In this document: one piece after another, positions 2,207 to 46,126 of the stretch | Layout of the letters: every line of letters begins with the position of its first letter | Numbering within the stretch: the first letter of the stretch is position 1 | Assembly (NCBI GenBank): GCA_028866935.1 | Contig: JAGWHH010000002.1 | Location: forward strand, 1-46,464 | Reading direction: 5' to 3' | Length of the DNA: 46,464 bases | From: Candidatus Micrarchaeota archaeon | GTDB taxonomy: Archaea; Micrarchaeota; Micrarchaeia; Micrarchaeales; CABMGC01 | Notes under the pieces: generated by a model | The model's database searches: none | What the model was told of the DNA's origin: nothing | Seen by the model: only the letters and a program-made list of their open reading frames with translations | Program-made: the position numbers and the translations under genes

Positions 2207-2242
2207 CGATCATTTATATATCCTAATTTGAAATTCATTATC

Positions 2243-21425: not shown

Positions 21426-21908
21426 TTACGGCCTCTTTAATCCCAATATAAGTGAAGCTGGGCATGTCCTGCTTCCTGCAAATAAGTAATATCTTTTTCC
21501 CAAAATTTTAGCCCCTGCGTCAGCAATTACGTCCATAGAGATCGGGCCAGATCCAGGCCATACCTGAATAGTCCTTTCCAGGTCCATGTCAATATGGCCT
21601 GTTAGCCTTCCCCCACTGTCCCAATTATGATCGCCTTCCTCAGCCTCACTAATATTTCTGCCAGCAAGCCATGCCCATTTGCCTTTCATGAACTCCTTAA
21701 TGTCGCTATTCCTGTCAATTGCCTGTAAAAGCACATTAAAAGTTATTGGCCTAAGTGCGTTGTCCAGGAGCACAGCCCTTGTCGTACCAAGGCCTGCAGG
21801 ACCTTCGGACACGTAAAGGGTTCCACTGCTATTTAGTGAGAAGCCTTCAAACTGCCTTTTTAGGGCGCTCTTCGTAGCTATTGTCATATAAATTAACTTG
21901 GAATTCAT
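21426..21908 (-). CDS. hypothetical protein, member C of the paralogous family
   Basis: KGKWAWLAGRN and ERTIQVWPGSGPISMDV...GKRYYLFAGSRTCPASLILGLK align with member B (ERNVRVWSGSNPVRVFV...SRRYYLYANLRPGLVAPVVLGIK). Confidence 0.6.
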   Translation of the reverse strand: MNSKLIYMTIATKSALKRQFEGFSLNSSGTLYVSEGPAGLGTTRAVLLDNALRPITFNVLLQAIDRNSDIKEFMKGKWAWLAGRNISEAEEGDHNWDSGGRLTGHIDMDLERTIQVWPGSGPISMDVIADAGAKILGKRYYLFAGSRTCPASLILGLKRP

Positions 21909-23655: not shown

Positions 23656-26600
23656 CTACGTGCACTCGAAGCCTCCAAATTTATTGCACGAAATTGATGT
23701 AGGGCAGCTTGGAGGGCACGAATCGCCGTCAATTACGATCTGATAACATAAATTACACGAGTAATAGCCCGATTGCACGGTAGTTGTTGAAAACGATGTC
23801 GTGCTTGTGGAAGAAGTAGATGTCGTCGAAGTAGTGGTGGTCGTAGATGACGATGACATTGTAGTTGTGTTTACAGCACCGTATATTTCTATATTTACAA
23901 ATGTCACCTTCCCAGCGCTGACATTCAGGTAGTTCGTGCTGTTGGTTATGTTATCGTACGTCGCATCGACCTCGTATGAGCCCGGTGTTATAACGAACCC
24001 AGTGTTGTATTCTCCCTTAATTCCTGTATACCATCCGTTATAGCTTTGCACACCTGGCGAGAATGCCATCACCTGCGCAGCCGCCGCCGGAGCGCCATTG
24101 AAGAACACTGTTACGTTCAACGCTCCGTAACCCGAACCCCCGGTTATTGTGGTAGTCGGGGTCGTGGATGTTACCGTCGTAGTTGTGCTGGCGCTGCTGT
24201 TTTTGGATACGTACATCAACAGCGGCACAGACGCATTGTAAACTCCGTTGGGCGTTGCCATTGTGGCAGTGATGCGCGCTACGTACAGACTACTCCTTAT
24301 GCCATTGCCAAGCGATATGTGGAGGGCCGCGGAACCATAGAGCGACTTCGAGTTCACGTTTGCAGGATTAGGCATGAAGGCATATGTGGAATTGGCTGGC
24401 CTGTCATTCACGTATGCCAATGACATATTTGCAGCGTACGGCGCTAGAGGAATGCACGGTAGCGTCCTGTTTGAAATGAGATACGTTCTGCACAGCCTTA
24501 CGGTTATGTTGTCAGCGAAAGACTCTCCCGGAGAAGCGTATTCTGTTGTATTTGAAAGGCTTATGTTCAACTCTGTCCTCAAATAATTGCCGGAATAGGC
24601 AACCACTGGCATAAGGTAGGATTCCGACAGTATGGGCCATCCCACGCCGATCGTAAAGTTTATTCCGTGTATACCGGGAGTTTTGCCAACCTCCCACAAA
24701 AAGTCTGCAATTCCATTTGATGAGAGGTTTGAATAGCCGTTTACTATGCGCCCAGAAGAGTATCCCTCCATTATGCCAGAAGTGGTGTGCGCATACAGAT
24801 ACCTTGAGGAATTTCCTGCAGATGCCCCAGTGCTGGCATAGCGCACGGATACATTAATTGGTATGGTGCCGTTGACAGGCGCAAGTGCATACGGATATGA
24901 TGACGGCCATGTTATATTGAATATATAGGGATCCGTATCGACTAGGAACAACGATGTTGCGCCGTTGACGCATAGTGGATTCGGATCTGCGAAAAGATTG
25001 TAACCTGGTTTAGAAACGGCAACATTGTAGCACCCACCTGCAAGCTTTCCAGTAACTGCCGTTGCTGTTGCGTTTGTGGCCCCCGAAAACACCGCCTTCC
25101 CTCCAGGTATCGATATGGACACAGAGACATTTGGTATCCGGTAATAAACTCCGTACTTCGTGCAGTTCGCAGGGTTGTTAGAACATGACCCAAACTGGAA
25201 CATAGGAATATAATCGCTGTATATTGTAACATTGCCAGGACCACTGGCCGCAGTGGTATTTGTTGTGTATATAGCCCTAGCCTGCGTGGGTCCTATAAGC
25301 TGGAATGTTATATCTGATATGCTGTATCTTTTGTAGTATTGGTTGCCTGCCAGCTCGGAGTAGATACTCCAGTAGCTGAAGTAGTAGGTCTTCGCAGAGG
25401 TTTTCACAATTTTGGGCGTGGAGAGCGACACAGGTTCCAGCACTGGCGAATAGTTAAGCTGCGACTTTGGCGAATATCCTCGCGGAGACGCCACCGATGA
25501 GTTCCCCGGTATCGTGGATGACACGTTAAGGAGCGCATATATGGTGTAGTTGAATCTCATTCCGCATATTTCGCTGCCGCACGAATACGTAGAAGAGGAG
25601 TTTGTTGCGTTGTATACGGTAAAATTGCCGACAGGGGTTTCGCCTATGGGTGCAGAGAACATATCAACGCCTGCGTTGATCAGCAGCGCAGTCTCAGACT
25701 CGTTCATAACCCCAGATAGGCTTGATTGGAACCCTCCGGTCGACTCTCCGAACGAATCCGGTCCATAAACCCACCAGGTGATCGGGAGGCTGCCTGATAC
25801 TGGGCCAAATGCGCCATCCATCGACGGAGGGACAGGACTTCCAGTAAAAGTGACTCCGAAGTAGACGCTTGGTATCTCGCTGTAGGGAAGCTGCGGGTTC
25901 AGTCCCGAAGCCGCCCATCCTTCGGCATCTATGCAGTCATCTATGCCAAAGAAATTGCAGCCTCCAGTATCATAGCTCCACTGCGGGCGCAAAGGGGGCG
26001 CACTTCCTACCTGCAGCATTGGCATTGCAGCATAATCGCCTACGCACATCGATGAACCGCCTCCAGGAGGGGGCGGTGGCGGCATGCATATTGGAGCAAA
26101 CAGCGGTAATCCAACACCCGAACTGTTGCCTTCCAATCCAGGAACTATCGACGTTATCACAGGAGCATAATATATCAGGTATGCAAAGTTATCGTAATAG
26201 CTGTACGGGTATGGAAGTGCGCTGTCATGTGGACTGAGTTCATAAGTGCCGTCAAGAACCGCGTCCATTATCGGGTCGCCAGATGTCTTGCCGCTCTCAT
26301 TCACGAACCTGGCGCTAAACTGCCTTGGGGCGTAGACAGGGCGTTTAACAAAAAAACTCGACAGAGCCGAAGAAAGCGAGCTTGCGTTGTATCCTATCAA
26401 CAGAAACACGGTCTGACCGGGCTCCCATACATTATACTTGCTTATCATTGCGCCTTTTGTGTAATTGAGAGCGTTGTCAAGCTCTGTGATATTGATGGCC
26501 TTCAGTGCAAGTTGCGCGTATGCATCATTACTGCTGTTTACTACAATTACTATGAAAGTGGAATTCTGGACGTTTGTGAAATTAGCCTCGTCAGCATACC

Positions 26601-26832
26601 TGAAATCATATTTCTCCCTTGCCAGTGACGCAAACTGGCCGTTGGCTGTCAAAACACTATGCGGTGCGATCAAAGCGAACGAGGCATTGCCCAGATGTGC
26701 AAAAGGATCCAACGCGCTGAGATTTTCTGCCTGCGTGCCAGGCGATCTCGTTGTTAGCAGGAGTACAGCAATTATAGATATTACTACCGCAATAATTAGG
26801 ATAATGGCATAGTCTAGACTCTTCTTGGCTAT
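23656..26832 (-). CDS. large surface (S-layer-like or adhesin-like) glycoprotein, more than 1018 aa
   Basis: Very many N-x-S/T sequons, a PPPPPGGG segment, a CarboxypepD_reg-like segment, a poly-Ser/Thr linker and a Cys-rich C-terminus. The track start (TTG 26712) omits an in-frame upstream hydrophobic anchor (KKSLDYAIILIIAVVISIIAVLLL), so the true start is unresolved (see finding). The end given is the in-frame ATA at 26832-26830. Confidence 0.7.
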   Translation of the reverse strand: MAKKSLDYAIILIIAVVISIIAVLLLTTRSPGTQAENLSALDPFAHLGNASFALIAPHSVLTANGQFASLAREKYDFRYADEANFTNVQNSTFIVIVVNSSNDAYAQLALKAINITELDNALNYTKGAMISKYNVWEPGQTVFLLIGYNASSLSSALSSFFVKRPVYAPRQFSARFVNESGKTSGDPIMDAVLDGTYELSPHDSALPYPYSYYDNFAYLIYYAPVITSIVPGLEGNSSGVGLPLFAPICMPPPPPPGGGSSMCVGDYAAMPMLQVGSAPPLRPQWSYDTGGCNFFGIDDCIDAEGWAASGLNPQLPYSEIPSVYFGVTFTGSPVPPSMDGAFGPVSGSLPITWWVYGPDSFGESTGGFQSSLSGVMNESETALLINAGVDMFSAPIGETPVGNFTVYNATNSSSTYSCGSEICGMRFNYTIYALLNVSSTIPGNSSVASPRGYSPKSQLNYSPVLEPVSLSTPKIVKTSAKTYYFSYWSIYSELAGNQYYKRYSISDITFQLIGPTQARAIYTTNTTAASGPGNVTIYSDYIPMFQFGSCSNNPANCTKYGVYYRIPNVSVSISIPGGKAVFSGATNATATAVTGKLAGGCYNVAVSKPGYNLFADPNPLCVNGATSLFLVDTDPYIFNITWPSSYPYALAPVNGTIPINVSVRYASTGASAGNSSRYLYAHTTSGIMEGYSSGRIVNGYSNLSSNGIADFLWEVGKTPGIHGINFTIGVGWPILSESYLMPVVAYSGNYLRTELNISLSNTTEYASPGESFADNITVRLCRTYLISNRTLPCIPLAPYAANMSLAYVNDRPANSTYAFMPNPANVNSKSLYGSAALHISLGNGIRSSLYVARITATMATPNGVYNASVPLLMYVSKNSSASTTTTVTSTTPTTTITGGSGYGALNVTVFFNGAPAAAAQVMAFSPGVQSYNGWYTGIKGEYNTGFVITPGSYEVDATYDNITNSTNYLNVSAGKVTFVNIEIYGAVNTTTMSSSSTTTTTSTTSTSSTSTTSFSTTTVQSGYYSCNLCYQIVIDGDSCPPSCPTSISCNKFGGFECT

Positions 26833-27110: not shown

Positions 27111-28286
27111 ATGAAAGCGCCCCGATGGATGAATAGAGAAGTGCTTCTTATCTCCTTCTCGGCTTTTTTCGCTGACCTAGGCTACCAGACAGTGATAGCC
27201 CTATTCCCTATACTCTTGGTTCTTGTTTTAGGCGCCTCTCCTAGCACTTATGGGATTGCTACTGCGCTAGCTTTTGGAGTAGGATCAGTATTTGGGTATA
27301 TAGGTGGCATCCTTGGGGATAGATTTAGCTACAAGAAGATAGCCATCCTAGGAAACCTATTTGTGCCTCTGCTCTCTCTTGTCGGGCTCGCAGTCAGCCC
27401 TACGGTAGCCATAGTCCTTTTCGCTTCTGGTTGGTGGGCAAGAAACTTCAGGAGCCCTCCACGCAGAAGCATGCTGGTCTTGGCATCAACCCAGAAAGAC
27501 AGAGGCAAAGCATTCGGCTTCCTTCATGCCCTAGACATAGGTGGTGGAATGCTATCTATCCTAATCCTTGCCGTTGTCCTGTTAAGCGGTATTTCGTACA
27601 GAACCGCTATCCTTATCACAGCACTGCCTATATTATTCTCCACTGTACTTCTCCTCTTTGCAAGAGATCCAAGCCATGAGCACATCGTACGCCGTTCGAC
27701 CAGCGGCAGCGGCATTGTAAATGGAAACGCTGCACGTTCTGCATACCTGGGCATATTGGTCGCAACTTTGCTGTACGGCTTTAGCTACTACAGCTTGGGC
27801 TTTCCGATACTAACTATAGCAGAGAAGTCGTCAAGCATTGCGGGAATAGGCTCATATGCAGTATATCTGGGCGTCTCCGCGGTTGCTGGATATTACATCG
27901 GCTCAAGAAAACTGAACAAGATAAAGGTCCTGGGCACTATGGGGTACATACTTTCCGGCATAGGCACGCTCGGCTTGGGGTTTGCGTATATCCTCGGCCA
28001 GGGAACTGCAGTATTCTACCTAATGGTGGCGGTCATCGGGCTCTCACTAGGCGTAATAGAAACGCTTGAACCTACTATAGTGTCATTAATTAAAGTGCGC
28101 GGCAAGGTAGGCAGCGGCATGGGCGCGCTCACGGCTTCAAGGAGCTTCGGGGTTTTTGCAGCAAACCTCATAATGGGCTTTTTGTATATGGTAAATCCTT
28201 TCTATTCGTATACTTATGCAGGACTGGTATCGGTTGCCGCTGGCTGCATAATTATGTATTACGGAAAGGGATTTAGCAAAAGATGA
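27111..28286 (+). CDS. MFS-type transporter
   Basis: 391 aa, about 10-12 hydrophobic helices, with a basic loop motif (GDRFSYKK) after TM2 typical of MFS. Confidence 0.8.
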   Translation: MKAPRWMNREVLLISFSAFFADLGYQTVIALFPILLVLVLGASPSTYGIATALAFGVGSVFGYIGGILGDRFSYKKIAILGNLFVPLLSLVGLAVSPTVAIVLFASGWWARNFRSPPRRSMLVLASTQKDRGKAFGFLHALDIGGGMLSILILAVVLLSGISYRTAILITALPILFSTVLLLFARDPSHEHIVRRSTSGSGIVNGNAARSAYLGILVATLLYGFSYYSLGFPILTIAEKSSSIAGIGSYAVYLGVSAVAGYYIGSRKLNKIKVLGTMGYILSGIGTLGLGFAYILGQGTAVFYLMVAVIGLSLGVIETLEPTIVSLIKVRGKVGSGMGALTASRSFGVFAANLIMGFLYMVNPFYSYTYAGLVSVAAGCIIMYYGKGFSKR

Positions 28287-28328
28287 TTATTTACCCTGTA
28301 ATACGGGTTATCTAAAGATCCAATGGGT

Positions 28329-28481
28329 TTACCTGCCTTTCCCACTTGCCTCTATAGACTGCCGTGCCACTTCCAGGTTGCAGCTATCGTGCTTGGAACA
28401 CCATGCATAGCATTTGTCAGCCAATTCTTTTCTATTGTAATGAAGTCCGCATATCTTACAAGAATATCCATTTTTAGACAT
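28329..28481 (-). CDS. small Cys-rich (zinc-ribbon-like) protein, 50 aa, below the ORF-track cutoff
   Basis: My own translation of the minus strand: MSKNGYSCKICGLHYNRKELADKCYAWCSKHDSCNLEVARQSIEASGKGR. CxxC...CxxxC...C pattern. Confidence 0.45.
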   Translation of the reverse strand: MSKNGYSCKICGLHYNRKELADKCYAWCSKHDSCNLEVARQSIEASGKGR

Positions 28482-28574
28482 ATACTTAGCTTGCCAATGA
28501 CTTATAAAAACATTGACTTATTGCCTATTAATCAATAAAACCCAAAATCAAAGTATTCAAAAATGTATTTCCGA

Positions 28575-28612
28575 AGATGTGCCTGTGGCGCATCTTGCGC
28601 ATCGGGCGATGC
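28575..28612 (+). repeat. two-hairpin motif, copy 2 (agatgtgc-ctgtg-gcgcatct, then gcatcg-gg-cgatgc)
   Basis: Read directly from the sequence. About 70-105 nt upstream of the ATG at 28681. The second stem differs from copy 1 by two compensatory base-pair changes. Confidence 0.6.
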
Positions 28613-28680
28613 CACTCAAGTACAACTCCGCTCCACAATGCGCTATATGTATTTTTATTTCTTTCAACGTATCTAGTAAC

Positions 28681-28872
28681 ATGGCAAAATCAAAAAAGCA
28701 GGAAGGTATCAAGTACATTTTATACGCTGTGCTTTTGCTCTCGTTTGTGGCTATACTGTATTTGTCACAACAAATCTCGGCAATCCTCAACGTTGCAACT
28801 GGGGTCGAAGTAGTTATAGCAAGCGTAATAATGGCTTTCGCCACCTACGCCCTTGCAAAGATCTACGGTTAG
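28681..28872 (+). CDS. small membrane protein (63 aa, 2 TM)
   Basis: MAKSKKQEGIKYILYAVLLLSFVAILY...VVIASVIMAFATYALAKIYG. The ATG at 28681 is preferred over the 119-aa track ORF, whose N-terminal part runs through the hairpin motif. Confidence 0.45.
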   Translation: MAKSKKQEGIKYILYAVLLLSFVAILYLSQQISAILNVATGVEVVIASVIMAFATYALAKIYG

Positions 28873-28884
28873 AACAGTTGCCTA

Positions 28885-28905
28885 AGATGTGCCCAATGCA
28901 CATCT
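28885..28905 (+). repeat. hairpin motif, copy 3 (agatgtgc-ccaat-gcacatct), first hairpin only
   Basis: Perfect 8-bp inverted repeat 13 nt after the stop of the small membrane protein gene. Confidence 0.5.
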
Positions 28906-29418
28906 CGGGCTTCTGGCATATCACTCGCACAGCATAAATTCCAGGGTGCTTTGGCTTAACTGCATCTCACTATTCTTATCTTGACCGTTCCATTCATCAC
29001 ATCATTTCCAGGCAAATATCCTTTTGGGCAGCAGCAATATTGCTGTATTCAATAAATTTCCTGCTGTTGGCGGTAATGTTCAAGGTCTTCACGCACTACA
29101 TGCGCAGCCATCACTAGGCAGTTCAGACGTACACCAAGAGGGGACTGCGAAAAACCATACATTCGGACCTGTAATCTACCTCCTTGCAATGACCTTTTCG
29201 TTTGTAGACTCTTCCATACGCCACTATCTGCTTTTATCTGTCTTATCTTCTGGATGTACAGGCAGATAAGATGAAGATTATGGGCCCTCTTTTGCCTGCC
29301 CTCAACCAACCGACGTATAATTTATGCCTATTTCTCAAAATAACAAACTTTCACTAAATTTTGTCCAAAATCACACCGTTTAAATACCAGACTGTTCACC
29401 ATATCTTTGTGACCAGAT

Positions 29419-30000
29419 ATGACCGCTAAAGTTACTGAAGTAGGAAGAGTCGTTGAAGGACAAAGAGTATTTACTGTTTTGGAACGCAAACCAGAAGAGA
29501 AACCCCAAACCTATGTTGCATATAATCGCGAGCTAATTACCCTAGAAGAGCTCGTTAAGATCCTATCAAACGGCGGAGCAAAAACAATAGAAAATACTAG
29601 AGCGTTTCAGGAACACAGCTCCCTATGGCTTGACCTTAAAGACCAAGGCACTAGACTTCACGGTTATTATAGGATAAATTATGAAGGTGATAATTTAGAT
29701 GAAATGTTCCTGCCAATGTGGAATAATAAGAGCGCATGGGACGCCCTTCCATTTAAGGAAAGAGCATACTTCCACGGAGGAAGGGATAACCTTACTGTTC
29801 TCATATCAAATATTTCAGATGGCGAGAAGGTTAAGATGGATGGCGACCGCATCCCCGCGCGCCTGGTTGTATATGCCAATGGCATGCCACAGCTTACGCC
29901 TCCAGTTGCAGTAGTTGATAGGACACCTACCAATGGCCATGGATCAGAGAGCAAGAGAAACAGCGTGTATGTCGAAGTGCACGAGATTGTGCGTGAGTAA
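29419..30000 (+). CDS. hypothetical protein, divergent member D of the paralogous family
   Basis: RELITLEELV, SSLWLDLKDQG and ERAYFHGGRDNLTVLI...IPARLVVYANG align loosely with the family blocks. Confidence 0.55.
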   Translation: MTAKVTEVGRVVEGQRVFTVLERKPEEKPQTYVAYNRELITLEELVKILSNGGAKTIENTRAFQEHSSLWLDLKDQGTRLHGYYRINYEGDNLDEMFLPMWNNKSAWDALPFKERAYFHGGRDNLTVLISNISDGEKVKMDGDRIPARLVVYANGMPQLTPPVAVVDRTPTNGHGSESKRNSVYVEVHEIVRE

Positions 30001-30040: not shown

Positions 30041-30763
30041 CTACAACTTTAGGAGCTTCGCTGCGTTTTCGTAAAGAACCGCTGACTTTTCCTCGTAAGT
30101 AAGCTTGGTTTTCATTACCTTGAGCAGCTCCAATTCCTGGTCGCCGTAAGGCGCGTCAGATCCGAACAGTATCTTGTCAGCACCCACAATGTCGTAAATT
30201 TTGTTTATTCCATTAGGATGGAATGAGTCTATAGATGTTTCAAGATACAGGTTTTCGCATTCCTTGACTTTCTGCACTGCAGCTGGCGATCTGTCAGCAA
30301 AGTGCCCTAGTATTATATTAATGTCGGTGAAATCATCAGCAAGGCTTGCAATGCGGTCAGGATCTGTAAATACTGGCGCTCTGCCCCCCTTTTTGGTGTG
30401 TATTAGCAATGGTTTCCCGCTTTTAGATATCTCCTCGTATAAAGGATAATATCTCTTATCAATAGGGTCAAAATTCTGTGACCTGGGGTGAAGCTTCACG
30501 CCTTTAAATCTGGATATATGCTTACTTACTGTGTCAGGAGCTGTAGTATTAGGATCAAACCTAAGGAAGCATGCAAACCTCTTCTCATTCAGGTTTAGGA
30601 GGCTTAAACTTGCCTCTATAAGGTTCTTTTCTTTCTCGTCAAACGGGAACACTGCAGCCATGTCTACTCCATTATGGTCCATATGTGCTAGCAGCTCCTT
30701 GGCGCTCTGGCGCCCCCCATCCTTATCATCCCCTATATGGGCATGTATATCAAAAATCATCAT
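30041..30763 (-). CDS. metal-dependent amidohydrolase (TIM-barrel, amidohydrolase_2-like)
   Basis: N-terminal DIHAHIG, an internal H (LLIHT, ILGH) and C-terminal FGSDAPY, typical of the amidohydrolase superfamily. Confidence 0.75.
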   Translation of the reverse strand: MMIFDIHAHIGDDKDGGRQSAKELLAHMDHNGVDMAAVFPFDEKEKNLIEASLSLLNLNEKRFACFLRFDPNTTAPDTVSKHISRFKGVKLHPRSQNFDPIDKRYYPLYEEISKSGKPLLIHTKKGGRAPVFTDPDRIASLADDFTDINIILGHFADRSPAAVQKVKECENLYLETSIDSFHPNGINKIYDIVGADKILFGSDAPYGDQELELLKVMKTKLTYEEKSAVLYENAAKLLKL

Positions 30764-30791
30764 ATGGGGATCACATTAAGTATCGGCGTAA

Positions 30792-32204
30792 TCACTCATC
30801 GACTCTAAATCGTAGGCTCTCAACTAACGGCTTTATCCCTTCCTCATCAAATACCCTCCTGCTCCTATCAGAAGGCACCTCGCCCCTTGCCAAGCCCTCA
30901 TACTTGGGCCTAAGGTAATCGGTGTTTTCGCCTATTTTGAGCAGTCCCTCGAATGCGACATCTAGAACTTCGTGGGCAGCCATCATTACGGTCTCATTGT
31001 TTGTAACGCCATTGTAAGCAACATCATTCTTGAGCCTTGTAATCTCATCTACACTCCTGCGCATTGCAAGCTCCTGGGCCCTGTCCAGATTCTCTGCCAA
31101 GCCTCGGATAACCGCACCCAAGCCCATTACCTCTGATCTGCTTGCCTGCTCTGAGAAAAGCCTTACTTCCACTGTGTTTGTGTAGCTCTTCAGCCTTGCA
31201 TCTGCTCTTACCAGCCCTTCCATTACTTCTATATCCTGCTCTTCAAATCTTACTGCAAAGACGCTCCCAACTCCATCTCTCGATGCACTTGCTATGCCTC
31301 TGTGCATGAAGTCTCTTAGGCTTACGGCCTCGTTTACCTTGTAATATTCGCCCTCTCTTTTAAGCAGATCCATAGGCAGACTCATCAGATGCTCAAAATA
31401 ATGGTCAAAATCACGGAATATTGGCGCTATGGCCAGATTCCTCTCAAGTAGATAGTCTTCATAGAATGTAGTCCTTGAATCTGCCATGCCTGCATGAGGC
31501 CCTCTTACGGGGCTTGAATTTGCACCAAGCGCCAGAAGCTCGGGTCGCAATCCGTTGTACACATTGGCAAGCCTTACCGCGTCCTCGCTGTCCTTTGTCT
31601 GGACATGGAAGTGCAGTGCTGCATTGACTGTAGGCCCGTAGGTCAGCCCTTCCTGGTCAATCCTGTATGAGCTGCCCCAAGTATCAAGCATCATTTTATA
31701 CCTAGGTATGCTCTCAAGGCAGAGCGCTGCGCCAGGCTGAGTTACTGGCTGTGTTCCGTGTCCAAGCACGTAAGCTCCACTCCTCTCAGCAACCTTGATC
31801 AAAGGTGTGACAAACTCTGCAATCATCTTGTTTGCATGGTCAAGACCGTTAGCTTTTGGAAGCGCAATTTCTACCGTTCCTACTCCAAATTCAGCGTGAA
31901 TAGATCCTCCATATCCGTCTATACCTTTTTCAACTCCAAATCCATGTGGATTGCGCTGCCATCCATCCCGGCTTCCCATATCCCTGAATATTCTCTTGAG
32001 CTGCCTTTCGCTTATTACCTGCCCAAACCCGTAGGCCCCTGACTTTACCAAAGGAAACTCCATCTCTATTCCGAAACCCCTCTCATCCCCTACAGATCTA
32101 AACTTTTCGGCATGCGCCTCCTTTGCAAGACCAATCCTGCTTCCCTGTGACGATTCGCTCTGAACATGTTTTTTTACCAACGCGAAAGTCATTTTAAGCA
32201 CCAA
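30792..32204 (-). CDS. carboxylate-amine ligase of the glutamate-cysteine ligase family 2 (GCS2/YbdK-like)
   Basis: GIEMEFPLV, GTVEIAL, ALHFHVQ, GANSSP, DSRTTFYE and VEVRLFSEQ blocks match the GCS2 pattern. 470 aa. Confidence 0.75.
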   Translation of the reverse strand: MVLKMTFALVKKHVQSESSQGSRIGLAKEAHAEKFRSVGDERGFGIEMEFPLVKSGAYGFGQVISERQLKRIFRDMGSRDGWQRNPHGFGVEKGIDGYGGSIHAEFGVGTVEIALPKANGLDHANKMIAEFVTPLIKVAERSGAYVLGHGTQPVTQPGAALCLESIPRYKMMLDTWGSSYRIDQEGLTYGPTVNAALHFHVQTKDSEDAVRLANVYNGLRPELLALGANSSPVRGPHAGMADSRTTFYEDYLLERNLAIAPIFRDFDHYFEHLMSLPMDLLKREGEYYKVNEAVSLRDFMHRGIASASRDGVGSVFAVRFEEQDIEVMEGLVRADARLKSYTNTVEVRLFSEQASRSEVMGLGAVIRGLAENLDRAQELAMRRSVDEITRLKNDVAYNGVTNNETVMMAAHEVLDVAFEGLLKIGENTDYLRPKYEGLARGEVPSDRSRRVFDEEGIKPLVESLRFRVDE

Positions 32205-32492
32205 TAATTATACACAATATTAGATAGCACCTTATTGATATTTAAACGATGCTAGAATGAACAATTTCATGCAAATAATTGTTATTTTGAGACATCGCAG
32301 AGAACTTTAAATATCTTTTCAGGTTATCAAACAGGGATGCTCTGGCTGCTAATTTTTCTATCATTTTATCGCCAATCAAAAGTAACATTTTATTTATAAA
32401 GCCTTGCATTTTAACTAAAATTAGTGGAAGTATCAACTGCCCCAGAACATCCGTTAATTTCGGCAAGTGGTTCATGATCAAAGCAACAACAA

Positions 32493-33740
32493 ATGTCCAT
32501 AAAACTGTTCAGAATAGGCATCTTTAAATATGAAAAACCATTAAGCAATAATGATAAAGAGGTTTGGTATACTATGAAACTTAAACAGGCAAATGTAGCA
32601 GGCATGATCACACATCAAAAGGATGGTTATGTTGGCGGTTACGGCACCGAGACCTATAAAGAGAAGGCAGAACACGCAAGAGAGATAGGGCTATATTTTG
32701 TAAAAATAGACCTGACTGAAGAAAATGCACGACAGATCCGGGAAGGCGGAAACGTAACTGCAAAGCACTGGGATGGTAGAACTCTTAGCGATGTGACCAT
32801 TCCAGCAAGGAACATTAAAGCTATTTATGATTTCTCAGAACTTGACATGCCTGAATACAAAGACCCTGCATATGATGGCATAATCAGTGCGCTTACAAAC
32901 AATGGCGTCAGATTCGTAAACGGTCCAAAGGCAAAGCAGATAGGAAACGACAAGCAACTAAGCCAGGAGCTTTTCGAAGAGGTGGGCGTGAGGACTCCAA
33001 TTACAATGCAGTACAACAGGGAAAACGCAAAGGCACTTCTGCATGAAAGTGGATTCATATTCATAAAGGACATCGAGGGGGTCATGGGCAATGGTCAGGT
33101 TACCATATTATCCACTGGAAACGGGTTTATGGCAAATGTTGACGGAACAAAAACAGGTTTTAGGGATGTGGGGTCCGCACTGGACTTTGCAGAGGAGTCG
33201 GTTCAAGGCAGGCTTATAGTCCAAGAGGGCATTGTAATACCAAGACTTGACGGAAGGGTTTGGGACTTCAGGGCCATTTTCCAGAAAGATGGCTCAGGAA
33301 ATACCGTCATGCCTCTAGTATTGGTAAGAATAGGCGCAATAGGAAGAGATCAGTCAAACATAGACAAAGGCGGCGAGGGGCAGGATCCGTACATCTTCTA
33401 CCCAAATTTCAGCACAGCACGCTGCGAGATCGAGGAAATAGGAATGAAAGTATTCAAGGGGCTTGAGAGAAAAGCCGGAGACGTTGGTGAAATAGGCATG
33501 GACTTCCTTGCCTCTACAAAAGGAGAACTTATACTTATAGAAATAAATCCTACCCCGGGATATACGGCAGGATACATAAGAGACCTTTCAAATGGGGGCC
33601 CGGTCAACTTTGAGCTTACCCTGCAAAGGGGCGGCAATATGCCTACAGAAGAAGAGATACACAGAAACTGGGCAGTCTCAATGAGAGACCGTATAAGGAA
33701 TCCTGTAAGCTACTCAAAGCATATAGTAGAAAGTGAGTGA
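32493..33740 (+). CDS. ATP-grasp amidoligase (resembles the YheC/YheD or TTL-like branch)
   Basis: The C-terminal GEIGMDFLASTKGELILIEINPTPGY and central WDFRAIFQKDGSGN...RIGA...SNIDKGG blocks fit the ATP-grasp fold. Divergent from the GCS2 gene. Confidence 0.7.
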   Translation: MSIKLFRIGIFKYEKPLSNNDKEVWYTMKLKQANVAGMITHQKDGYVGGYGTETYKEKAEHAREIGLYFVKIDLTEENARQIREGGNVTAKHWDGRTLSDVTIPARNIKAIYDFSELDMPEYKDPAYDGIISALTNNGVRFVNGPKAKQIGNDKQLSQELFEEVGVRTPITMQYNRENAKALLHESGFIFIKDIEGVMGNGQVTILSTGNGFMANVDGTKTGFRDVGSALDFAEESVQGRLIVQEGIVIPRLDGRVWDFRAIFQKDGSGNTVMPLVLVRIGAIGRDQSNIDKGGEGQDPYIFYPNFSTARCEIEEIGMKVFKGLERKAGDVGEIGMDFLASTKGELILIEINPTPGYTAGYIRDLSNGGPVNFELTLQRGGNMPTEEEIHRNWAVSMRDRIRNPVSYSKHIVESE

Positions 33741-33744
33741 CTTC

Positions 33745-34521
33745 TTAACGCAAAGCAGCCAAAAGGCCTGCTTCTTCATGTCCAACTTCCGGGGTATGGT
33801 GCTCCAATTCCTCTACATGCATTAATTTAGCATAAGGCACTTTTCCATCACTTGTTATGCCATAACACAGAAGTGTAGAAGAAACTACTGCTATGCCATC
33901 TTCATTAGCCGAATAATACATATTAAAATAATTGCTCAAGTGCGGGTTATCTGTTGGATTATTATAGTAATTGAAGAACTTAAGGGATGGAATATTAGAT
34001 GGTTTCTCGATTTCAAGCAGCATGAGATTAAGCCCTGAGATTGTTTGAGACTCCAATCTCTCTATGCCTGCCTCAACGCCTCTCTCGTTTAGGACTTTAA
34101 GGGCATACTCCGTATCGCTGCTAGATGGGTTTGGCCTCATCTTAACCATCCCATTATGGGCAAGATACAGCATATCTCCCTTATTTACTGCTAAGAACGG
34201 GTGCGAAAAGGTAAGACCAAGCTTTTTTTGATCGCTTGCCTTCCTTGCATGGAATATTGCAAAGGACCTTCCCTCTATCTCAGGTATCTTATGGCTATCA
34301 TCAAAAATTGGCGTTGCGCTTCTGTAATGCATTACGCTGCCATTTGTTACTATTACATAACCCCATCCATCGATACAACTGGCGCCTATCCTCAGCCCCC
34401 TACCTGCACTTTTGCGTGCGGCGTCTGCTACCGGATCATTCCTTGCCGATTCCTTCAAAGCCTCGTGTAACCTAGCTATCTCCTTGTTAGAGTTTCCAAC
34501 GTAGGCGAACATTCTGCACAT
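33745..34521 (-). CDS. class II (Ntn) glutamine amidotransferase-like protein (YafJ/EgtC-like)
   Basis: MCRMF with Cys2 as the putative N-terminal nucleophile, plus DGWG, HARKAS, SHPF and AHNG motifs. Confidence 0.8.
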   Translation of the reverse strand: MCRMFAYVGNSNKEIARLHEALKESARNDPVADAARKSAGRGLRIGASCIDGWGYVIVTNGSVMHYRSATPIFDDSHKIPEIEGRSFAIFHARKASDQKKLGLTFSHPFLAVNKGDMLYLAHNGMVKMRPNPSSSDTEYALKVLNERGVEAGIERLESQTISGLNLMLLEIEKPSNIPSLKFFNYYNNPTDNPHLSNYFNMYYSANEDGIAVVSSTLLCYGITSDGKVPYAKLMHVEELEHHTPEVGHEEAGLLAALR

Positions 34522-43871: not shown

Positions 43872-44693
43872 AATACCTAGGGCATTCGCCAAACCTCGTT
43901 GTGGTTGAAGCTTATTGTGCAGTAAATATACGCTTTTATGATGAGAAATACTTAACTCTACGCGATGTTCGTTGCGCTGAAGTGCCAACTATGGATTTAA
44001 AGTATGGGGTATGCGGGCAAGAAATCTGACTGCCTTTTAAGGCGGAGATGAATTGACTCCACAGCGTGAGACAAACAAATATCTTTTCCTCCAGAAAAAT
44101 ATCAGTGGCAGCAGTGCCGCGGTCATTACGCGGCCGGACACTACCACCGAAGGAACCAATATAAATGGCGTGAGCTTTGAGTCGAAATCTGTGCACGGTG
44201 TCGGGCAACTTGTTTTCCACCTTGAGTGGTGCCCGAAGTATCGGTACAATATGTTGAGGCAGGAAAGATTTAAGGATTTTCTTGCCACGATCTTGGAAGA
44301 GGAGTCAACGAAACTTCGTTGCCGAATTATCGAGATGGGAATAGAAGACGACCATGTCCACCTTGTTATTGCAACGAGACAATCAATTTCCATCAGCGAA
44401 CTGCTCCAACATCTGAAAGGCAAGAGTTCGTACAAACTATTTCGATACGAACCAAAGTTCAGGCTTCGATATCCAAAGGGAAGTTTCTGGAGCCCAGAAA
44501 AATTTTACAGGAGTGTCGGCGATGTGGACTTAGAAACAGTAAGGAACTATGTCAGAAAACAGGACCATAGGCAGAGGACACTTGCAATGTAACTGCACTG
44601 CAAGCGAGGGCGTCAGAATCCGCACCCTTTAGGGTTTGCGGAGGGACGCCCGAGCTGCCTAGGGTTCATAAGGGGCGAAGCCCCTTATCTCAA
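43872..44693 (+). mobile_element. IS200/IS605-like element 1 (Y1 transposase only, no tnpB)
   Basis: About 110 nt of left end and about 35 nt of right end are conserved with element 2. Left-end hairpin 43961-43976, right-end hairpins 44608-44651 and 44668-44688. Confidence 0.65.
44053..44592 (+). CDS. tnpA: IS200/IS605 family Y1 (HUH) transposase TnpA
   Basis: FHLEWCPKYRY, HUH motif DDHVHLVI, LKGKSSYKLF, FWSPEKFYRSVG, and the catalytic-Tyr motif RNYVRKQ. The real start is probably an internal GTG (44170 or 44191). Confidence 0.8.
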   Translation: MTPQRETNKYLFLQKNISGSSAAVITRPDTTTEGTNINGVSFESKSVHGVGQLVFHLEWCPKYRYNMLRQERFKDFLATILEEESTKLRCRIIEMGIEDDHVHLVIATRQSISISELLQHLKGKSSYKLFRYEPKFRLRYPKGSFWSPEKFYRSVGDVDLETVRNYVRKQDHRQRTLAM

Positions 44694-44783: not shown

Positions 44784-45449
44784 ATGGCAGTTGCAGTGAA
44801 AACAAAGTTGAAATTTACAGAGTTTCAGGTAGGGAATCTTACTGTAGGCGTGGTCAGGACGGATGCAGACCATGCTGCCTCCATGAGGGCGCTTAGGGAA
44901 AACGGATACGAACCAATGACTACACACCAGCAGGTTCTTACTTCAATAGATGGAAACGAAGGCCTTAAAGGAAGTCTGAAGGGGACGTGGTTCCACACAG
45001 ACATTGATCCAAGATCGATTGGTAGCAGAGATGGATTGAGAGGATTTACTGAGAAAGGAAAGTTTACCGAACCAGGTTCTGATATTGAAAGAAATGTTCG
45101 TGTCTGGTCAGGAAGCAACCCTGTCCGGGTCTTCGTCAGGTCGGACTACTACGCTCGTCTCAGCAGCAGGCGATACTACCTCTACGCGAACCTCAGGCCT
45201 GGTCTTGTTGCGCCGGTGGTGCTTGGCATCAAGCAAGTAGGGCAGCCAAGCCAAGCTCAAGCTGGCGTCCTAGAAGCAGCACAAGCTTCAAAACAGTTGC
45301 AAACAGCAGTACAGAACGTAGCAAGAAGCTTAGGTCCTGCCGAAGAGGTAGTCTCAAGAATTGAAGAGTCTGGCTTGATGAGAAATGCGGACTTCAGGAA
45401 GCTTAAGGCTCTAGTAAGAGACGCAGCAAAACTTGGACAAATAAGTTAA
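44784..45449 (+). CDS. hypothetical protein, member B of the paralogous family, located between the two IS200-like elements
   Basis: KGTWFHTD and ERNVRVWSGSNPVRVFV...SRRYYLYANLRPGLVAPVVLGIK blocks, plus a helical Q/A-rich C-terminal tail like member A. Confidence 0.6.
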   Translation: MAVAVKTKLKFTEFQVGNLTVGVVRTDADHAASMRALRENGYEPMTTHQQVLTSIDGNEGLKGSLKGTWFHTDIDPRSIGSRDGLRGFTEKGKFTEPGSDIERNVRVWSGSNPVRVFVRSDYYARLSSRRYYLYANLRPGLVAPVVLGIKQVGQPSQAQAGVLEAAQASKQLQTAVQNVARSLGPAEEVVSRIEESGLMRNADFRKLKALVRDAAKLGQIS

Positions 45450-46126
45450 TACCTGAGAATTCCCCCAACCTCGTTTGTGGTTGAAGCCTAATTCTACATC
45501 AAATATACGTTTTTCTTGAGAAAAAGTAGCGACGCGACGTGATGTTCGTCGCGCCGAAGTATCAACGATGAGTCTAACTCATGCAAAAAATATAAAGGAA
45601 TTGGACTTGGTGTACAATTTTCAGCACATTGTGCCTGTATCAAAGTACCGATTCAAAGTCTTCAGAAATCCAAGGACGCAGAAAGTTGTTGCAGATGCAT
45701 TCAGAGAAGTGGAAATACAATTCGGCATCAAGATAAAGGAATTTGCCTTCGGGGACGATTATGCACACATTCACATGGAAGTTAACGTACCCAGAAATCT
45801 TTCGATGCAGCAGGTGGAACAGATTTTGAAATCACACTCTGCCTCTAAAGTATTCAAAGAAATGCCAAATTTCATTAAAAGATATCCTGACAAACATTTC
45901 TGGGGTGGTCAACCTTCAGGAACCAGCGTAGGGCCTGTGGGTGAACACGTCATACAGAATTACATCAGAATGCAGGATGTTTCTTACGAACCGTTTCTGC
46001 AACACGAAGAGCAAAGACCTCAGATGAAACTGCAATTAAACTGATGCGTAGGTCGCCTTCCGCTGGTTTTCCGCGTATGGACCCGACCATGCCGAGGGTT
46101 TATAAGGGGCCAAGCCCCCTATTTCA
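45448..46126 (+). mobile_element. IS200/IS605-like element 2 (Y1 transposase only)
   Basis: Conserved ends shared with element 1. Left-end hairpin cgcgacg-tgatgtt-cgtcgcg (45533-45553), right-end hairpin 46102-46122. Confidence 0.65.
45568..46044 (+). CDS. tnpA: divergent IS200/IS605-like Y1 (HUH) transposase
   Basis: HIVPVSKYRFKVF, HUH motif AHIHMEV, LKSHSASKVF, FWGG...SVG, and the Tyr motif QNYIRMQ. Its ATG sits at the conserved caacgATG of the left end. Confidence 0.7.
   Translation: MSLTHAKNIKELDLVYNFQHIVPVSKYRFKVFRNPRTQKVVADAFREVEIQFGIKIKEFAFGDDYAHIHMEVNVPRNLSMQQVEQILKSHSASKVFKEMPNFIKRYPDKHFWGGQPSGTSVGPVGEHVIQNYIRMQDVSYEPFLQHEEQRPQMKLQLN

What the first reader, a model, noticed from the sequence alone, without database searches (positions are those of the whole stretch)
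30041..34521. Compact amidoligase/amidohydrolase cluster (GCS2 ligase + ATP-grasp + Ntn amidotransferase-like + TIM-barrel amidohydrolase) with no obvious known pathway
Four enzymes from amide-bond-making and amide-bond-breaking superfamilies sit within 4.5 kb. They are an amidohydrolase_2-like hydrolase (30041..30763, -), a GCS2/YbdK-type carboxylate-amine ligase (30792..32204, -), an ATP-grasp ligase of YheC/D- or TTL-like appearance (32493..33740, +) and a Cys2 Ntn class-II amidotransferase-like protein of YafJ/EgtC type (33745..34521, -). The two ligases are divergently transcribed from a shared 288-bp AT-rich region. The hydrolase follows the GCS2 gene by 28 nt. The layout formally parallels two known schemes. 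One is GshA + GshB (a gamma-glutamyl ligase followed by an ATP-grasp extension). The other is EgtA/EgtC (add then remove a gamma-glutamyl group). However, no EgtB/EgtD-like genes are present, and the ATP-grasp does not look like a GshB. Among archaea, gamma-glutamylcysteine is established mainly for haloarchaea, and glutathione-type tripeptides are not expected. The cluster is therefore a candidate for an undescribed gamma-glutamyl peptide, low-molecular-weight thiol or peptide/protein-tagging system. Such systems were predicted computationally for GCS2/ATP-grasp/GAT-II neighbourhoods. A divergent member of the local paralog family (29419..30000) lies immediately next to the cluster.
Basis: partly seen in the sequence, partly recalled or inferred. 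Interest (0 to 1): 0.75.

Follow-up and report, generated by a model that had tools for sequence, protein, structure and literature searches.

The report
Conserved amide-ligase/hydrolase operon in Micrarchaeota
Four enzymes that make or break amide bonds form a real gene module, conserved but shuffled among tiny acid-loving archaea, and it probably builds and trims an unidentified small gamma-glutamyl peptide.

Summary
The four ORFs are at the stated coordinates. Three family assignments pass curated HMM cut-offs: Amidohydro_2, GCS2 and ATPgrasp_YheCD. The fourth protein is below Pfam threshold. An invariant Cys2, the class-II amidotransferase motifs and an hhalign match to E. coli YafJ (79%) still support it as an Ntn amidohydrolase.

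The genes are not a chance neighbourhood. All four recur together in three other genomes (L098, L003, L004) with different order and strand. Partial versions occur in several more. The GCS2 ligase is the hub. It shares an operon with the amidohydrolase in 10 of 11 loci holding a GCS2 of at least 29% identity. The ATP-grasp and Ntn genes are add-ons.

The GCS2 family is rare: 250 clusters among 1.84 billion representatives. Over its full length it resembles plant-type glutamate-cysteine ligase (E 3e-36).

There are no EgtB, EgtD or GshB genes and no conserved small tag ORF. The claimed adjacent "paralog" (29419-30000) has no paralog in the window. Two start codons should move, which makes the divergent spacer 381 bp rather than 288 bp.

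Best reading: an uncharacterised small-molecule gamma-glutamyl peptide pathway. The product is unknown. Both structure predictions failed.

The parts
30041..30763 (-). Metal-dependent TIM-barrel amidohydrolase (Amidohydro_2, COG2159-like), 240 aa. It is the most constant partner of the ligase.
   Evidence: Pfam PF04909 scores E 3e-25, 90 bits against a cut-off of 26.4. Orthologues at 46-62% identity lie next to GCS2 in L003, L004, L088, L097, L098, L100, L101 and L105. H7, H9, K90, H122, H154 and D203 are invariant, matching the HxH...K...H...H...D ligand pattern. The closest solved structure is 3cjp, a 'predicted amidohydrolase, dihydroorotase family', at E 2.5e-9.
30792..32192 (-). GCS2-type carboxylate-amine ligase related to plant-type glutamate-cysteine ligase, and the hub of the module. 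The ORF extends to TTG 32204, but the likely start is ATG 32192.
   Evidence: Pfam GCS2 scores E 4e-12. A family profile hits plant GCL structures 6gmo and 2gwc at E 3e-36 over the full length, and YbdK at E 2e-21 over the N-terminal half only. The exhaustive search found only 250 representative clusters at E<1e-3. E47, E49, E112, N229, R283, R337, E346 and R348 are invariant or nearly so.
32193..32573 (.). AT-rich divergent promoter region between GCS2 and the ATP-grasp gene. A block at about 32236-32295 upstream of GCS2 is conserved with L098.
   Evidence: GC content is 30.7% against 44.9% for the window. A block of about 55 nt, including TATA-like TTTAAATA, is shared with L098. The motif TGTnCATTnTA occurs upstream of GCS2 only in these two loci. 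No gene is called here in the public record, and the 79-aa ORF 32242-32481 has no family match.
32574..33740 (+). YheC/D-type ATP-grasp amide ligase, 388 aa. The ORF opens at 32493.
   Evidence: Pfam ATPgrasp_YheCD scores E 2.4e-28. No GshB family was hit. RimK, MptN and Ddl models score far below their cut-offs. Orthologues at 36-48% identity occur in L001, L003, L004, L005, L088 and L098. ATP-grasp signature residues are invariant: K165, Q217-E218, D310, E323, N325.
33745..34521 (-). Probable Cys-nucleophile Ntn amidohydrolase (class-II glutamine amidotransferase-like, YafJ/EgtC type), 258 aa. It is convergent with the ATP-grasp gene, with 4 nt between the stop codons.
   Evidence: C2, DGWG, H-A-R, HPF, HNG and D136 are invariant in 5 orthologues. 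hhalign against E. coli YafJ gives 78.9% probability over 92 columns with the motifs in register. Pfam GATase_6 and GATase_4 and the NCBIfam EgtC model give weak, sub-threshold hits. Orthologues at 41-49% identity lie beside the module in L003, L004, L095 and L098.

Best explanation
This is a genuine, vertically maintained but modular operon of Micrarchaeota-type archaea. It most likely makes and processes a small soluble gamma-glutamyl amide or peptide.

Shown:
- The four genes are functionally linked by conserved, rearranged neighbourhoods.
- The hub is a plant-GCL-like GCS2 ligase, almost always co-transcribed with a small metal-dependent amidohydrolase.
- All four proteins keep their catalytic residues.

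Inferred:
1. The GCS2 enzyme uses ATP to join the gamma-carboxyl of glutamate to an alpha-amino acid. Cysteine is the obvious candidate.
2. The YheC/D-type ATP-grasp, when present, adds a further residue to that product through an acyl-phosphate. This is a GshB-like role played by a non-orthologous enzyme, as the ATP-grasp half of GshF does.
3. The Cys2 Ntn enzyme removes the gamma-glutamyl group, as EgtC or yeast Dug3 do.
4. The amidohydrolase either cleaves the remaining peptide or N-acyl bond, or prepares the ligase's amine substrate by deacylation.

The product is not identified.
For: Neighbourhood conservation with rearrangement (G = GCS2, A = amidohydrolase, P = ATP-grasp, N = Ntn):
- window: A(-)G(-)|P(+)N(-)
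- L098/99: N P|G A
- L003 and L004: N|P G A
- L088: P G A
- L005: G P A
- L097, L100, L101, L105: G A
- L095: G N
- L001: P' A P

Other evidence:
- G-to-A spacers are short or overlapping (about 30 nt at most, and the locus tables), which implies co-transcription.
- Identity to the window ranks the same way for all four proteins, with L098 closest. This indicates inheritance as a unit.
- The GCS2 profile matches plant GCL over its full length at E 3e-36, and the metal- and substrate-binding Glu and Arg residues are conserved. These include the MPKxRY arginine, which probably corresponds to BjGCL Arg220 (PMC6463388 for the role of Arg220; the numbering offset is my inference).
- Catalytic motifs are intact in P, N and A.
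- Cluster GC equals genome GC.
- Sulfur or redox neighbours occur in some loci: a Cys/Met PLP enzyme in L098, SufBCDS in L105, and an AhpC/thioredoxin-fold protein in L101. This is weak evidence.
- In L104 a GCS2 homologue pairs instead with an M20 peptidase and an AstE/AspA deacylase. That suggests the hydrolase partner acts on a dipeptide or N-acyl amino acid.
Against: - No substrate or product evidence of any kind exists.
- Identity to plant GCL is only about 25-30%, and the score is far below the TIGR01436 equivalog cut-off (42 against 463 bits). Cysteine specificity is therefore unproven.
- The ATP-grasp has no detectable GshB affinity.
- Amidohydro_2 members include lactonases and decarboxylases as well as amidases.
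- Encoding synthesis and hydrolysis of one compound together needs a rationale, such as turnover, a protecting group or substrate preparation. That rationale is not shown.
- G-A pairs without P or N, and G-N pairs without A, show that the 'tripeptide' step is dispensable.
- Structure predictions failed (pLDDT 33 and 39), so no pocket analysis was possible.
Confidence: 0.42

Rival explanations
1. Amine-carrier or amidotransfer scheme. GCS2 loads an amine (or ammonia) onto glutamate as a gamma-glutamyl amide. The class-II amidotransferase-like Ntn protein cleaves that amide and hands the amine to a carboxylate that the ATP-grasp has activated as an acyl-phosphate. This is the logic of gamma-glutamylmethylamide synthetase plus N-methylglutamate synthase, or of asparagine-synthetase-type amidation.
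For: The Ntn protein has the full class-II amidotransferase motif set. A G+N pair exists on its own in L095. N always lies beside P when both are present. Knowledge of the GmaS/NMGS pathway is my own and was not tested here.
Against: To my knowledge, stand-alone YafJ/EgtC-type proteins with a known function are hydrolases, not ammonia donors. No synthase or acceptor domain is fused to it. The scheme does not explain why the amidohydrolase is the most constant partner of GCS2 (10 of 11 loci).
Confidence: 0.12
2. Protein or peptide tagging. The ATP-grasp (YheC/D, RimK or TTL-like) and/or the GCS2 ligase add glutamate or another residue to a protein C-terminus or side chain. The two hydrolases would remove or trim the tag, by analogy with RimK, tubulin glutamylation or PafA/Dop.
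For: The YheC/D family sits among protein- and peptide-modifying ATP-grasps. The weak profile hits are to RimK and LysX. Pairing a ligase with a hydrolase is typical of reversible tagging. Such systems were predicted for amidoligase neighbourhoods by Iyer et al. 2009, which I cite from memory because the paper is not held.
Against: GCS2 aligns over its full length with small-molecule GCL, not with Pup ligase. No small ORF or candidate target gene is conserved next to the module across loci. The 79-aa ORF in the spacer overlaps the conserved promoter block and is not called as a gene. The hub pair G+A exists without the ATP-grasp.
Confidence: 0.12
3. Deacylase-then-ligase route to a conjugate, following mycothiol or bacillithiol logic. 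The amidohydrolase deacylates an N-acylated scaffold to expose an amine. GCS2 then ligates an amino-acid carboxylate to it. The ATP-grasp and Ntn proteins elaborate or recycle the conjugate.
For: The tight G-A coupling (spacers about 30 nt or less) fits two consecutive steps. In L104 the hydrolase neighbours are an M20 peptidase and an AstE/AspA deacylase. The HxH-K-H-H-D ligand set is typical of deacylases and dipeptidases of the amidohydrolase superfamily (the motif interpretation is my own knowledge).
Against: No glycosyltransferase or scaffold-forming gene is conserved nearby. GCL-type enzymes are known to activate glutamate rather than to accept bulky amines.
Confidence: 0.12
4. Salvage or catabolism by a host-dependent archaeon. 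The hydrolases break down imported gamma-glutamyl or other peptides taken from the host, and the ligases re-use the pieces. The module would be for scavenging rather than for biosynthesis of a dedicated metabolite.
For: Micrarchaeota are reduced, host-associated organisms (my own knowledge). Transporters of varying type lie near some loci: MFS at 27111-28286 in the window, a 523-aa multi-pass membrane protein that looks like a solute symporter next to N in L003 (not scanned against Pfam), and an amino-acid permease in L098.
Against: The transporters are not conserved in type or position. Two ATP-consuming ligases are unexpected in a purely catabolic route.
Confidence: 0.08
5. Chance juxtaposition of four unrelated housekeeping enzymes.
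For: The only support is that the window's four genes lie on both strands and are not one transcript.
Against: The same four families recur together in at least three other genomes with different order and flanking genes, and as pairs in several more.
Confidence: 0.02

Closest known systems
Glutathione biosynthesis: GshA plus GshB, or bifunctional GshF
   Same: A GCL-type ligase works with an ATP-grasp ligase encoded beside it. The GCS2 protein is a full-length homologue of plant/proteobacterial-type GCL (E 3e-36 to 2gwc and 6gmo).
   Different: The ATP-grasp belongs to the YheC/D family and shows no GshB match. The ligase scores far below the GCL equivalog cut-offs. Two hydrolases are part of the module. 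The ATP-grasp is dispensable in several genomes.
Ergothioneine pathway pair EgtA/EgtC
   Same: A GCS2-family ligase is paired with a Cys-nucleophile class-II amidotransferase-like hydrolase that could add and then remove a gamma-glutamyl group. A bare G+N pair exists in L095.
   Different: No EgtB, EgtD or EgtE genes occur in the window or the loci. The EgtC model scores 20 bits against a cut-off of 219.
Yeast DUG glutathione degradosome (Dug3 Ntn amidotransferase-like, plus Dug1/Dug2 M20 metallopeptidases)
   Same: An Ntn gamma-glutamyl amidase is combined with a metal-dependent peptidase. In L104 a GCS2 homologue pairs with an M20 peptidase.
   Different: The resemblance is recalled from my own knowledge and was not tested. 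Here the metallohydrolase is an Amidohydro_2 TIM barrel, and the hydrolases are co-encoded with ligases.
Amidoligase gene neighbourhoods predicted by Iyer, Abhiman, Burroughs and Aravind 2009 (COOH-NH2 ligase, ATP-grasp and GAT-II/Ntn combinations)
   Same: The enzyme superfamilies are the same, and so is the general prediction of novel peptide metabolites or tags.
   Different: That paper could not be read here. I found no description of this particular archaeal G-A-P-N module or of its GCS2 subfamily.
Glutathionylspermidine/trypanothione synthetase-amidase
   Same: An ATP-grasp synthetase and an amidase for the same amide bond are encoded together. This is a precedent for keeping making and breaking activities side by side (PMC2427367, abstract).
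   Different: There the two are fused in one protein with a CHAP amidase domain. No homology to that system was shown here.

Membership tests
GCS2 / carboxylate-amine ligase (Pfam PF04107) | HMM score above the gathering cut-off | tested here: met
   46.5 bits against a cut-off of 21, E 4e-12. Homologues are precomputed as PF04107.
GCS2 / carboxylate-amine ligase (Pfam PF04107) | Conserved N-terminal ExE and further Glu, Arg and Asn catalytic residues | tested here: met
   E47, E49, E112, N229, R283, R337, E346 and R348 are invariant or nearly so in 21 family members. They align with the plant GCL motifs.
Plant/proteobacterial glutamate-cysteine ligase (NCBIfam TIGR01436 equivalog) | Score above the equivalog cut-off | tested here: not met
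   42 bits against 463. The proteins are homologous over their full length, but this one is not a member of the equivalog.
Plant/proteobacterial glutamate-cysteine ligase (NCBIfam TIGR01436 equivalog) | Glutamate plus cysteine substrate specificity | not testable with these tools
   This needs an enzyme assay or a reliable model of the pocket. The available structure jobs (Ntn and ATP-grasp) gave models with pLDDT below 40, and GCS2 was not modelled.
YbdK-type or haloarchaeal GshA-type GCS2 | Score above the subfamily or equivalog cut-offs, and a length of about 370 aa | tested here: not met
   Scores are 22-64 bits against cut-offs of 176-437, and only the N-terminal half aligns. The protein is about 465 aa.
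ATPgrasp_YheCD (Pfam PF14398) | HMM score above the gathering cut-off, with ATP-grasp catalytic residues | tested here: met
   99.5 bits against 26.8. K165, Q217-E218, D310, E323 and N325 are invariant.
Glutathione synthetase GshB | A match to GSH-S_ATP, GSH-S_N or a GshB model | tested here: not met
   No such family appears at E<=0.01 in Pfam or NCBIfam.
RimK-family alpha-L-glutamate ligase (TIGR00768) | Score above the subfamily cut-off | tested here: not met
   31.8 bits against 143.4, covering residues 132-201 only. PDB profile hits to RimK and LysX are at E 0.004-0.03.
Class-II (Ntn) glutamine amidotransferase-like, YafJ/EgtC type | Nucleophile Cys immediately after the initiator Met | tested here: met
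   MCR(M/I) is the N-terminus in all 5 orthologues.
Class-II (Ntn) glutamine amidotransferase-like, YafJ/EgtC type | Family HMM above the gathering cut-off | tested here: not met
   GATase_6 scores 18.2 against 27, GATase_4 scores 13.8 against 23, and the EgtC model scores 20 against 219. The PDB profile search found no Ntn structure.
Class-II (Ntn) glutamine amidotransferase-like, YafJ/EgtC type | Profile-level homology with the conserved motifs in register (DGxG, HxR, HPF, HNG, DSE) | tested here: inconclusive
   hhalign against E. coli YafJ gives 78.9% probability, E 1.6e-5, over 92 columns with all motifs aligned. This is supportive but below the usual 90-95% level. No structure is available.
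Amidohydro_2 (Pfam PF04909) | HMM above the gathering cut-off, with metal-ligand residues | tested here: met
   90 bits against 26.4. H7, H9, K90, H122, H154 and D203 are invariant in 5 orthologues.
Ergothioneine gene cluster (egtABCDE) | Presence of EgtB (sulfoxide synthase) and EgtD (histidine methyltransferase) | tested here: not met
   No FGE-sulfatase, DinB_2 or Methyltransf_33 family was found in any scanned window ORF or in the called genes of the related archaeal loci.
Pupylation-like tagging (PafA/Dop plus Pup) | A Pup-ligase-type enzyme and a conserved small tag gene | tested here: not met
   The ligase is GCL-like, not Pup_ligase. No small ORF is conserved beside the module.

The most novel reading that the evidence does not exclude
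Micrarchaeota (DPANN archaea with reduced genomes) may make their own previously unknown low-molecular-weight thiol or glutathione analogue. A plant-GCL-like ligase would make a gamma-Glu-Cys core. A non-orthologous YheC/D-type ATP-grasp would act as the 'glutathione synthetase'. Dedicated Ntn and metallo-amidohydrolases would handle turnover or maturation. This could be an adaptation to the metal-rich, acidic habitats where these genomes appear to occur.
Probability: 0.2. Interest if true: 0.8.

Novelty: new variant of a known kind. Interest (0 to 1): 0.6.

Why it matters
DPANN archaea such as Micrarchaeota are thought to have shed most biosynthesis and to rely on their hosts. A conserved operon with two ATP-dependent amide ligases and two amidohydrolases, retained in several of these small genomes, implies a metabolite important enough to keep.

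If the product is a thiol peptide, it would extend glutathione-like chemistry to a lineage where none is known. It would also supply a third independent solution for the second ligation step, after GshB and GshF.

The GCS2 subfamily is rare, with 250 clusters among 1.84 billion representative proteins, and it is uncharacterised. Even the minimal ligase-plus-amidohydrolase pair would define a new enzyme pairing.

All four proteins look like ordinary soluble enzymes, so the question is directly testable by expressing them.

Tried and rejected
- **Word-index homologue searches.** They found almost nothing: GCS2 matched only itself, the ATP-grasp matched itself plus one protein, and the profile A1 gave 3 hits. 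The exhaustive search and the locus scans were needed instead.
- **The search for related loci with the 21-sequence alignment.** A 5-sequence alignment worked.
- **AlphaFold2.** Both jobs gave unusable models: the Ntn protein alone at pLDDT 33 and the ATP-grasp with a 2-sequence alignment at pLDDT 38.8. No fold search or pocket analysis was therefore done.
- **PDB searches.** The Ntn protein, alone or as a profile, returned only spurious hits.
- **EgtC look-alikes.** A search of the 77 actinobacterial GCS2 loci for ORFs starting MC... and containing HNG, to build a comparison profile, found none. Those loci are not egt operons.
- **'Local paralog family' for 29419-30000.** Rejected. The ORF has no paralog, family or orthologue.
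- **79-aa ORF 32242-32481 as a tag or precursor gene.** Rejected. It has no family, is not called in the public record, and overlaps the conserved promoter block.
- **A shared regulatory motif across all loci.** TGTnCATTnTA occurs upstream of GCS2 only in the window and L098.
- **L004 as evidence for a second phylum (Marsarchaeota).** Rejected. Its RadA is 85% identical to that of the Micrarchaeota locus L003, and the flanks are syntenic.
- **Literature.** Four searches found no description of this module. Iyer et al. 2009 is not held.

Full report
**1. The observation**

- 30041-30763 (-), 240 aa
- 30792-32204 (-), 470 aa
- 32493-33740 (+), 415 aa
- 33745-34521 (-), 258 aa

Pfam confirms three families above their curated cut-offs:

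| ORF | Family | E-value |
|---|---|---|
| 30041-30763 | Amidohydro_2 | 3e-25 |
| 30792-32204 | GCS2 | 4e-12 |
| 32493-33740 | ATPgrasp_YheCD | 2.4e-28 |

The fourth protein gets only sub-threshold hits: GATase_6 at E 0.0026, GATase_4 at E 0.028, and the NCBIfam EgtC model at E 2.8e-4 over residues 1-128.

The 28-nt spacer between GCS2 and the hydrolase is real. The region between the two ligases is AT-rich, about 31% GC against 45% for the window.

Two start codons should be moved:
- The ATP-grasp most likely starts at ATG 32574, giving 388 aa. This is the public gene call P0002. It fits the N-termini of all homologues and has GAGGT 11-15 nt upstream.
- GCS2 most likely starts at ATG 32192, the public gene call P0001.

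With these starts the divergent spacer is 381 bp rather than 288 bp.

The statement that 29419-30000 belongs to a local paralog family is not supported. The ORF has no blastp or phmmer match in the window, no Pfam or NCBIfam family, and no counterpart beside the module elsewhere.

**2. The Ntn protein**

Five orthologues share these invariant features:
- an invariant Cys2 (MCR...)
- DGWG
- H-A-R
- HPF
- HNG
- an Asp in a D(T/S)E motif

Together these are the motif set of class-II amidotransferase-type Ntn hydrolases.

A profile of the five aligns to E. coli YafJ, taken from the annotated K-12 record. The probability is 78.9% (E 1.6e-5) over 92 columns, with all motifs in register. PDB sequence and profile searches found nothing.

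I accept the assignment as probable but not proven. The protein is not an EgtC equivalog (20 bits against 219).

**3. Host and context**

The window is an archaeal chromosome segment. It carries:
- a ribosomal-protein operon (L3, L4, L2, L22, S3)
- HMG-CoA reductase
- 2-oxoacid:ferredoxin oxidoreductase
- class-I LysRS
- a Znu-type ABC transporter
- thermopsin
- two tRNAs

An identical stretch lies in assembly GCA_028867555.1. The best homologues come from MAGs named Candidatus Micrarchaeota (L003, L005). L005 also shares the alpha/beta-hydrolase and LysRS neighbours.

I infer that the window comes from a Micrarchaeota (DPANN) archaeon. An acidic habitat is suggested only by the thermopsin genes and is my guess. 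Cluster GC equals genome GC, so there is no sign of recent import.

**4. Is it a real module?**

Yes. The word-index searches were nearly blind. Three other routes did work:
- an exhaustive phmmer of GCS2
- pattern scans of species-representative genomes and of metagenomes
- contig look-ups

tblastn of the window proteins then mapped the genes. In the table, G = GCS2, A = amidohydrolase, P = ATP-grasp, N = Ntn.

| Locus | Arrangement | Notes |
|---|---|---|
| window | A(-)G(-)\|P(+)N(-) | |
| L098/L099 | N(+)P(-)\|G(+)A(+) | mirror image of the window's order |
| L003, L004 | N(-)\|P G A | |
| L088 | P G A | contig cut upstream |
| L005 | G P A | contig cut upstream |
| L097, L100 | G A | short contigs |
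| L101/102, L105 | G A | no P or N within about 6 kb on the side where the contig allows |
| L095/96 | G(+)N(-) only | same chromosomal slot (BCAT, DUF92 ... RadA, Dph5) that holds the full set in L003/L004 |
| L001 | P'(cut) A(-) P(+) | |

Further points:
- More distant GCS2 homologues (27-31% identity) stand alone (L083) or pair with an M20 peptidase (L104).
- Distant ATP-grasp homologues (31% identity) stand alone (L090).
- G and A share an operon in 10 of 11 loci that hold a GCS2 of at least 29% identity. The spacers are short or overlapping, about 30 nt at most.
- For all four proteins L098 is the closest relative of the window (G 37.5%, A 57%, P 47%, N 49%). L003 and L004 are next. This is what co-inheritance as a unit predicts.
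- L004 is labelled Marsarchaeota, but its RadA is 85% identical to that of L003 and its flanks are syntenic. I therefore do not count it as a second phylum.

**5. What the parts are**

*GCS2 subfamily.* It is rare. Among 1.84 billion representative proteins, 250 clusters score E<1e-3 and 25 score E<1e-30. A 21-member profile hits the plant glutamate-cysteine ligase structures 6gmo and 2gwc at E 3e-36 across the whole length. It hits YbdK at E 2e-21 over the N-terminal half only.

The ExE motif and the later Glu, Asn and Arg residues are conserved. The arginine of the MPKxRY motif is nearly invariant. By my count it corresponds to BjGCL Arg220, which contacts the carboxylate end of bound glutathione (PMC6463388). 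The numbering offset is my inference.

The enzyme is therefore best described as a GCL-like gamma-glutamyl ligase that accepts an alpha-amino acid. It falls far below every equivalog cut-off, so cysteine specificity is open.

*ATP-grasp.* It is a YheC/D-family enzyme with intact catalytic residues. It has no GshB match and only weak RimK, LysX and Ddl similarity.

*Amidohydrolase.* It keeps an HxH...K...H...H...D ligand set. From general knowledge of the superfamily, this suggests a binuclear metal centre with a carboxylated lysine, as in dihydroorotase-type amidases and dipeptidases. The nearest structure is an uncharacterised 'dihydroorotase family' protein, 3cjp.

**6. How it most likely works**

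Shown:
- Four catalytically intact enzymes are genetically linked.
- G+A is the hub.
- P and N are optional.

Inferred:
1. G makes a gamma-glutamyl-amino acid.
2. P extends it. This is a GshB-like role by a non-orthologous ATP-grasp, for which GshF is a precedent.
3. N removes the gamma-glutamyl group, as EgtC or Dug3 do.
4. A hydrolyses the remaining peptide or N-acyl bond, or prepares the amine substrate.

Weak thematic support for a sulfur or redox link comes from neighbours in three loci: a Cys/Met PLP enzyme in L098, SufBCDS in L105, and an AhpC/thioredoxin-fold protein in L101. The M20 peptidase and AstE/AspA deacylase beside the L104 homologue suggest that the hydrolase partner works on dipeptides or N-acyl amino acids.

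I put 0.42 on the general small-molecule gamma-glutamyl-peptide reading and about 0.2 on a thiol product.

The rivals are:
- an amine-carrier or amidotransfer scheme
- protein tagging
- deacylase-then-ligase conjugate synthesis
- peptide salvage

Tagging is weakened by the full-length GCL similarity and by the absence of any conserved small ORF. The 79-aa ORF in the spacer overlaps a promoter block conserved with L098 and is not a called gene.

**7. Comparison with known systems, and novelty**

The module works like a hybrid of GshA/GshB and EgtA/EgtC, but it is a member of neither:
- GshB, EgtB and EgtD are absent.
- The equivalog thresholds are not met.
- Two hydrolases are integral to it.

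Neighbourhoods of this general type (COOH-NH2 ligase, ATP-grasp and GAT-II) were predicted computationally in 2009. I cite that from memory because the paper is not held. I found no description of this archaeal module.

I rate it a new variant of a known kind, with interest 0.6. It is a conserved, uncharacterised two-ligase, two-hydrolase operon in a genome-reduced archaeal lineage, and it can be tested directly by expression and LC-MS.

**8. Limits**

- Both structure predictions failed, so there is no pocket analysis.
- Several loci are cut by contig ends, so the absence of N or P there is uninformative.
- Organism names are available only for the GTDB-representative loci.
- The count of independent lineages is modest, about ten loci that are probably all Micrarchaeota relatives.

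Noticed in passing
window 9767-11776 (-): The beta subunit of a 2-oxoacid:ferredoxin oxidoreductase (TPP_enzyme_C, PFO_beta_C) is interrupted by an intein with a LAGLIDADG homing-endonuclease domain (Intein_splicing plus LAGLIDADG_3, roughly residues 60-391).
   Followed up: no
window 44053-44592 (+) and 45568-46044 (+); also 21426-21908 (-) and 44784-45449 (+): Two IS200-type Y1 transposase ORFs are 31% identical to each other. A second paralog pair of unknown function is also 31% identical, and one copy lies between the transposases. These are the only real 'local paralog' families near the finding, together with the Laminin_G_3 pair.
   Followed up: partly
window 1337-2206 (+) and 2228-3139 (+): Tandem paralogs (40% identity) carry concanavalin-A-like Laminin_G_3 domains.
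   Followed up: no
window 23656-26712 (-): A 1018-aa protein is rich in Asn-X-Ser/Thr sequons and has a C-terminal Ser/Thr-rich stretch. It looks like a glycosylated surface (S-layer-type) protein. It was not scanned against family libraries.
   Followed up: no
window 32236-32295 (- strand) and L098 5930-5990: A block of about 55 nt upstream of GCS2 is conserved between two otherwise diverged intergenic regions. It includes a TATA-like TTTAAATA and a TGTnCATTnTA element, which is duplicated in L098. It may be a promoter or operator. L098 also encodes an HTH-CBS regulator two genes away.
   Followed up: partly
L001 1-2511: A higher-GC relative (60% GC, GCA_030043435.1) has two paralogous YheC/D ATP-grasp genes flanking the amidohydrolase and no GCS2 on the 4.3-kb contig. 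A 217-aa protein of unknown function and a histidine kinase lie downstream.
   Followed up: partly
L004 (JAMCSX010000028.1): The record is titled Candidatus Marsarchaeota. Its RadA is 85% identical to that of the Micrarchaeota locus L003, and the gene order is the same over more than 9 kb. The taxonomic label or the binning is doubtful.
   Followed up: partly
L003, L004, L095, L101: In these genomes the module, whether full or reduced, always sits immediately upstream of radA and the diphthine synthase gene (TP_methylase, Dph5-like). I read this as lineage synteny. A link to diphthamide amidation was not examined.
   Followed up: no
L104 and L105: Distant GCS2 homologues (29-31% identity) have different partners. 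In L104 the gene is divergent from an M20 peptidase, with an AstE/AspA-type deacylase nearby. In L105 the G-A pair is divergent from an HTH-SufB-SufD-SufC-SufS operon.
   Followed up: partly
window 28287-29418: About 1.1 kb between the MFS transporter gene and ORF 29419-30000 holds only short overlapping ORFs on both strands. The one tested, 28513-28872, has no family match.
   Followed up: no
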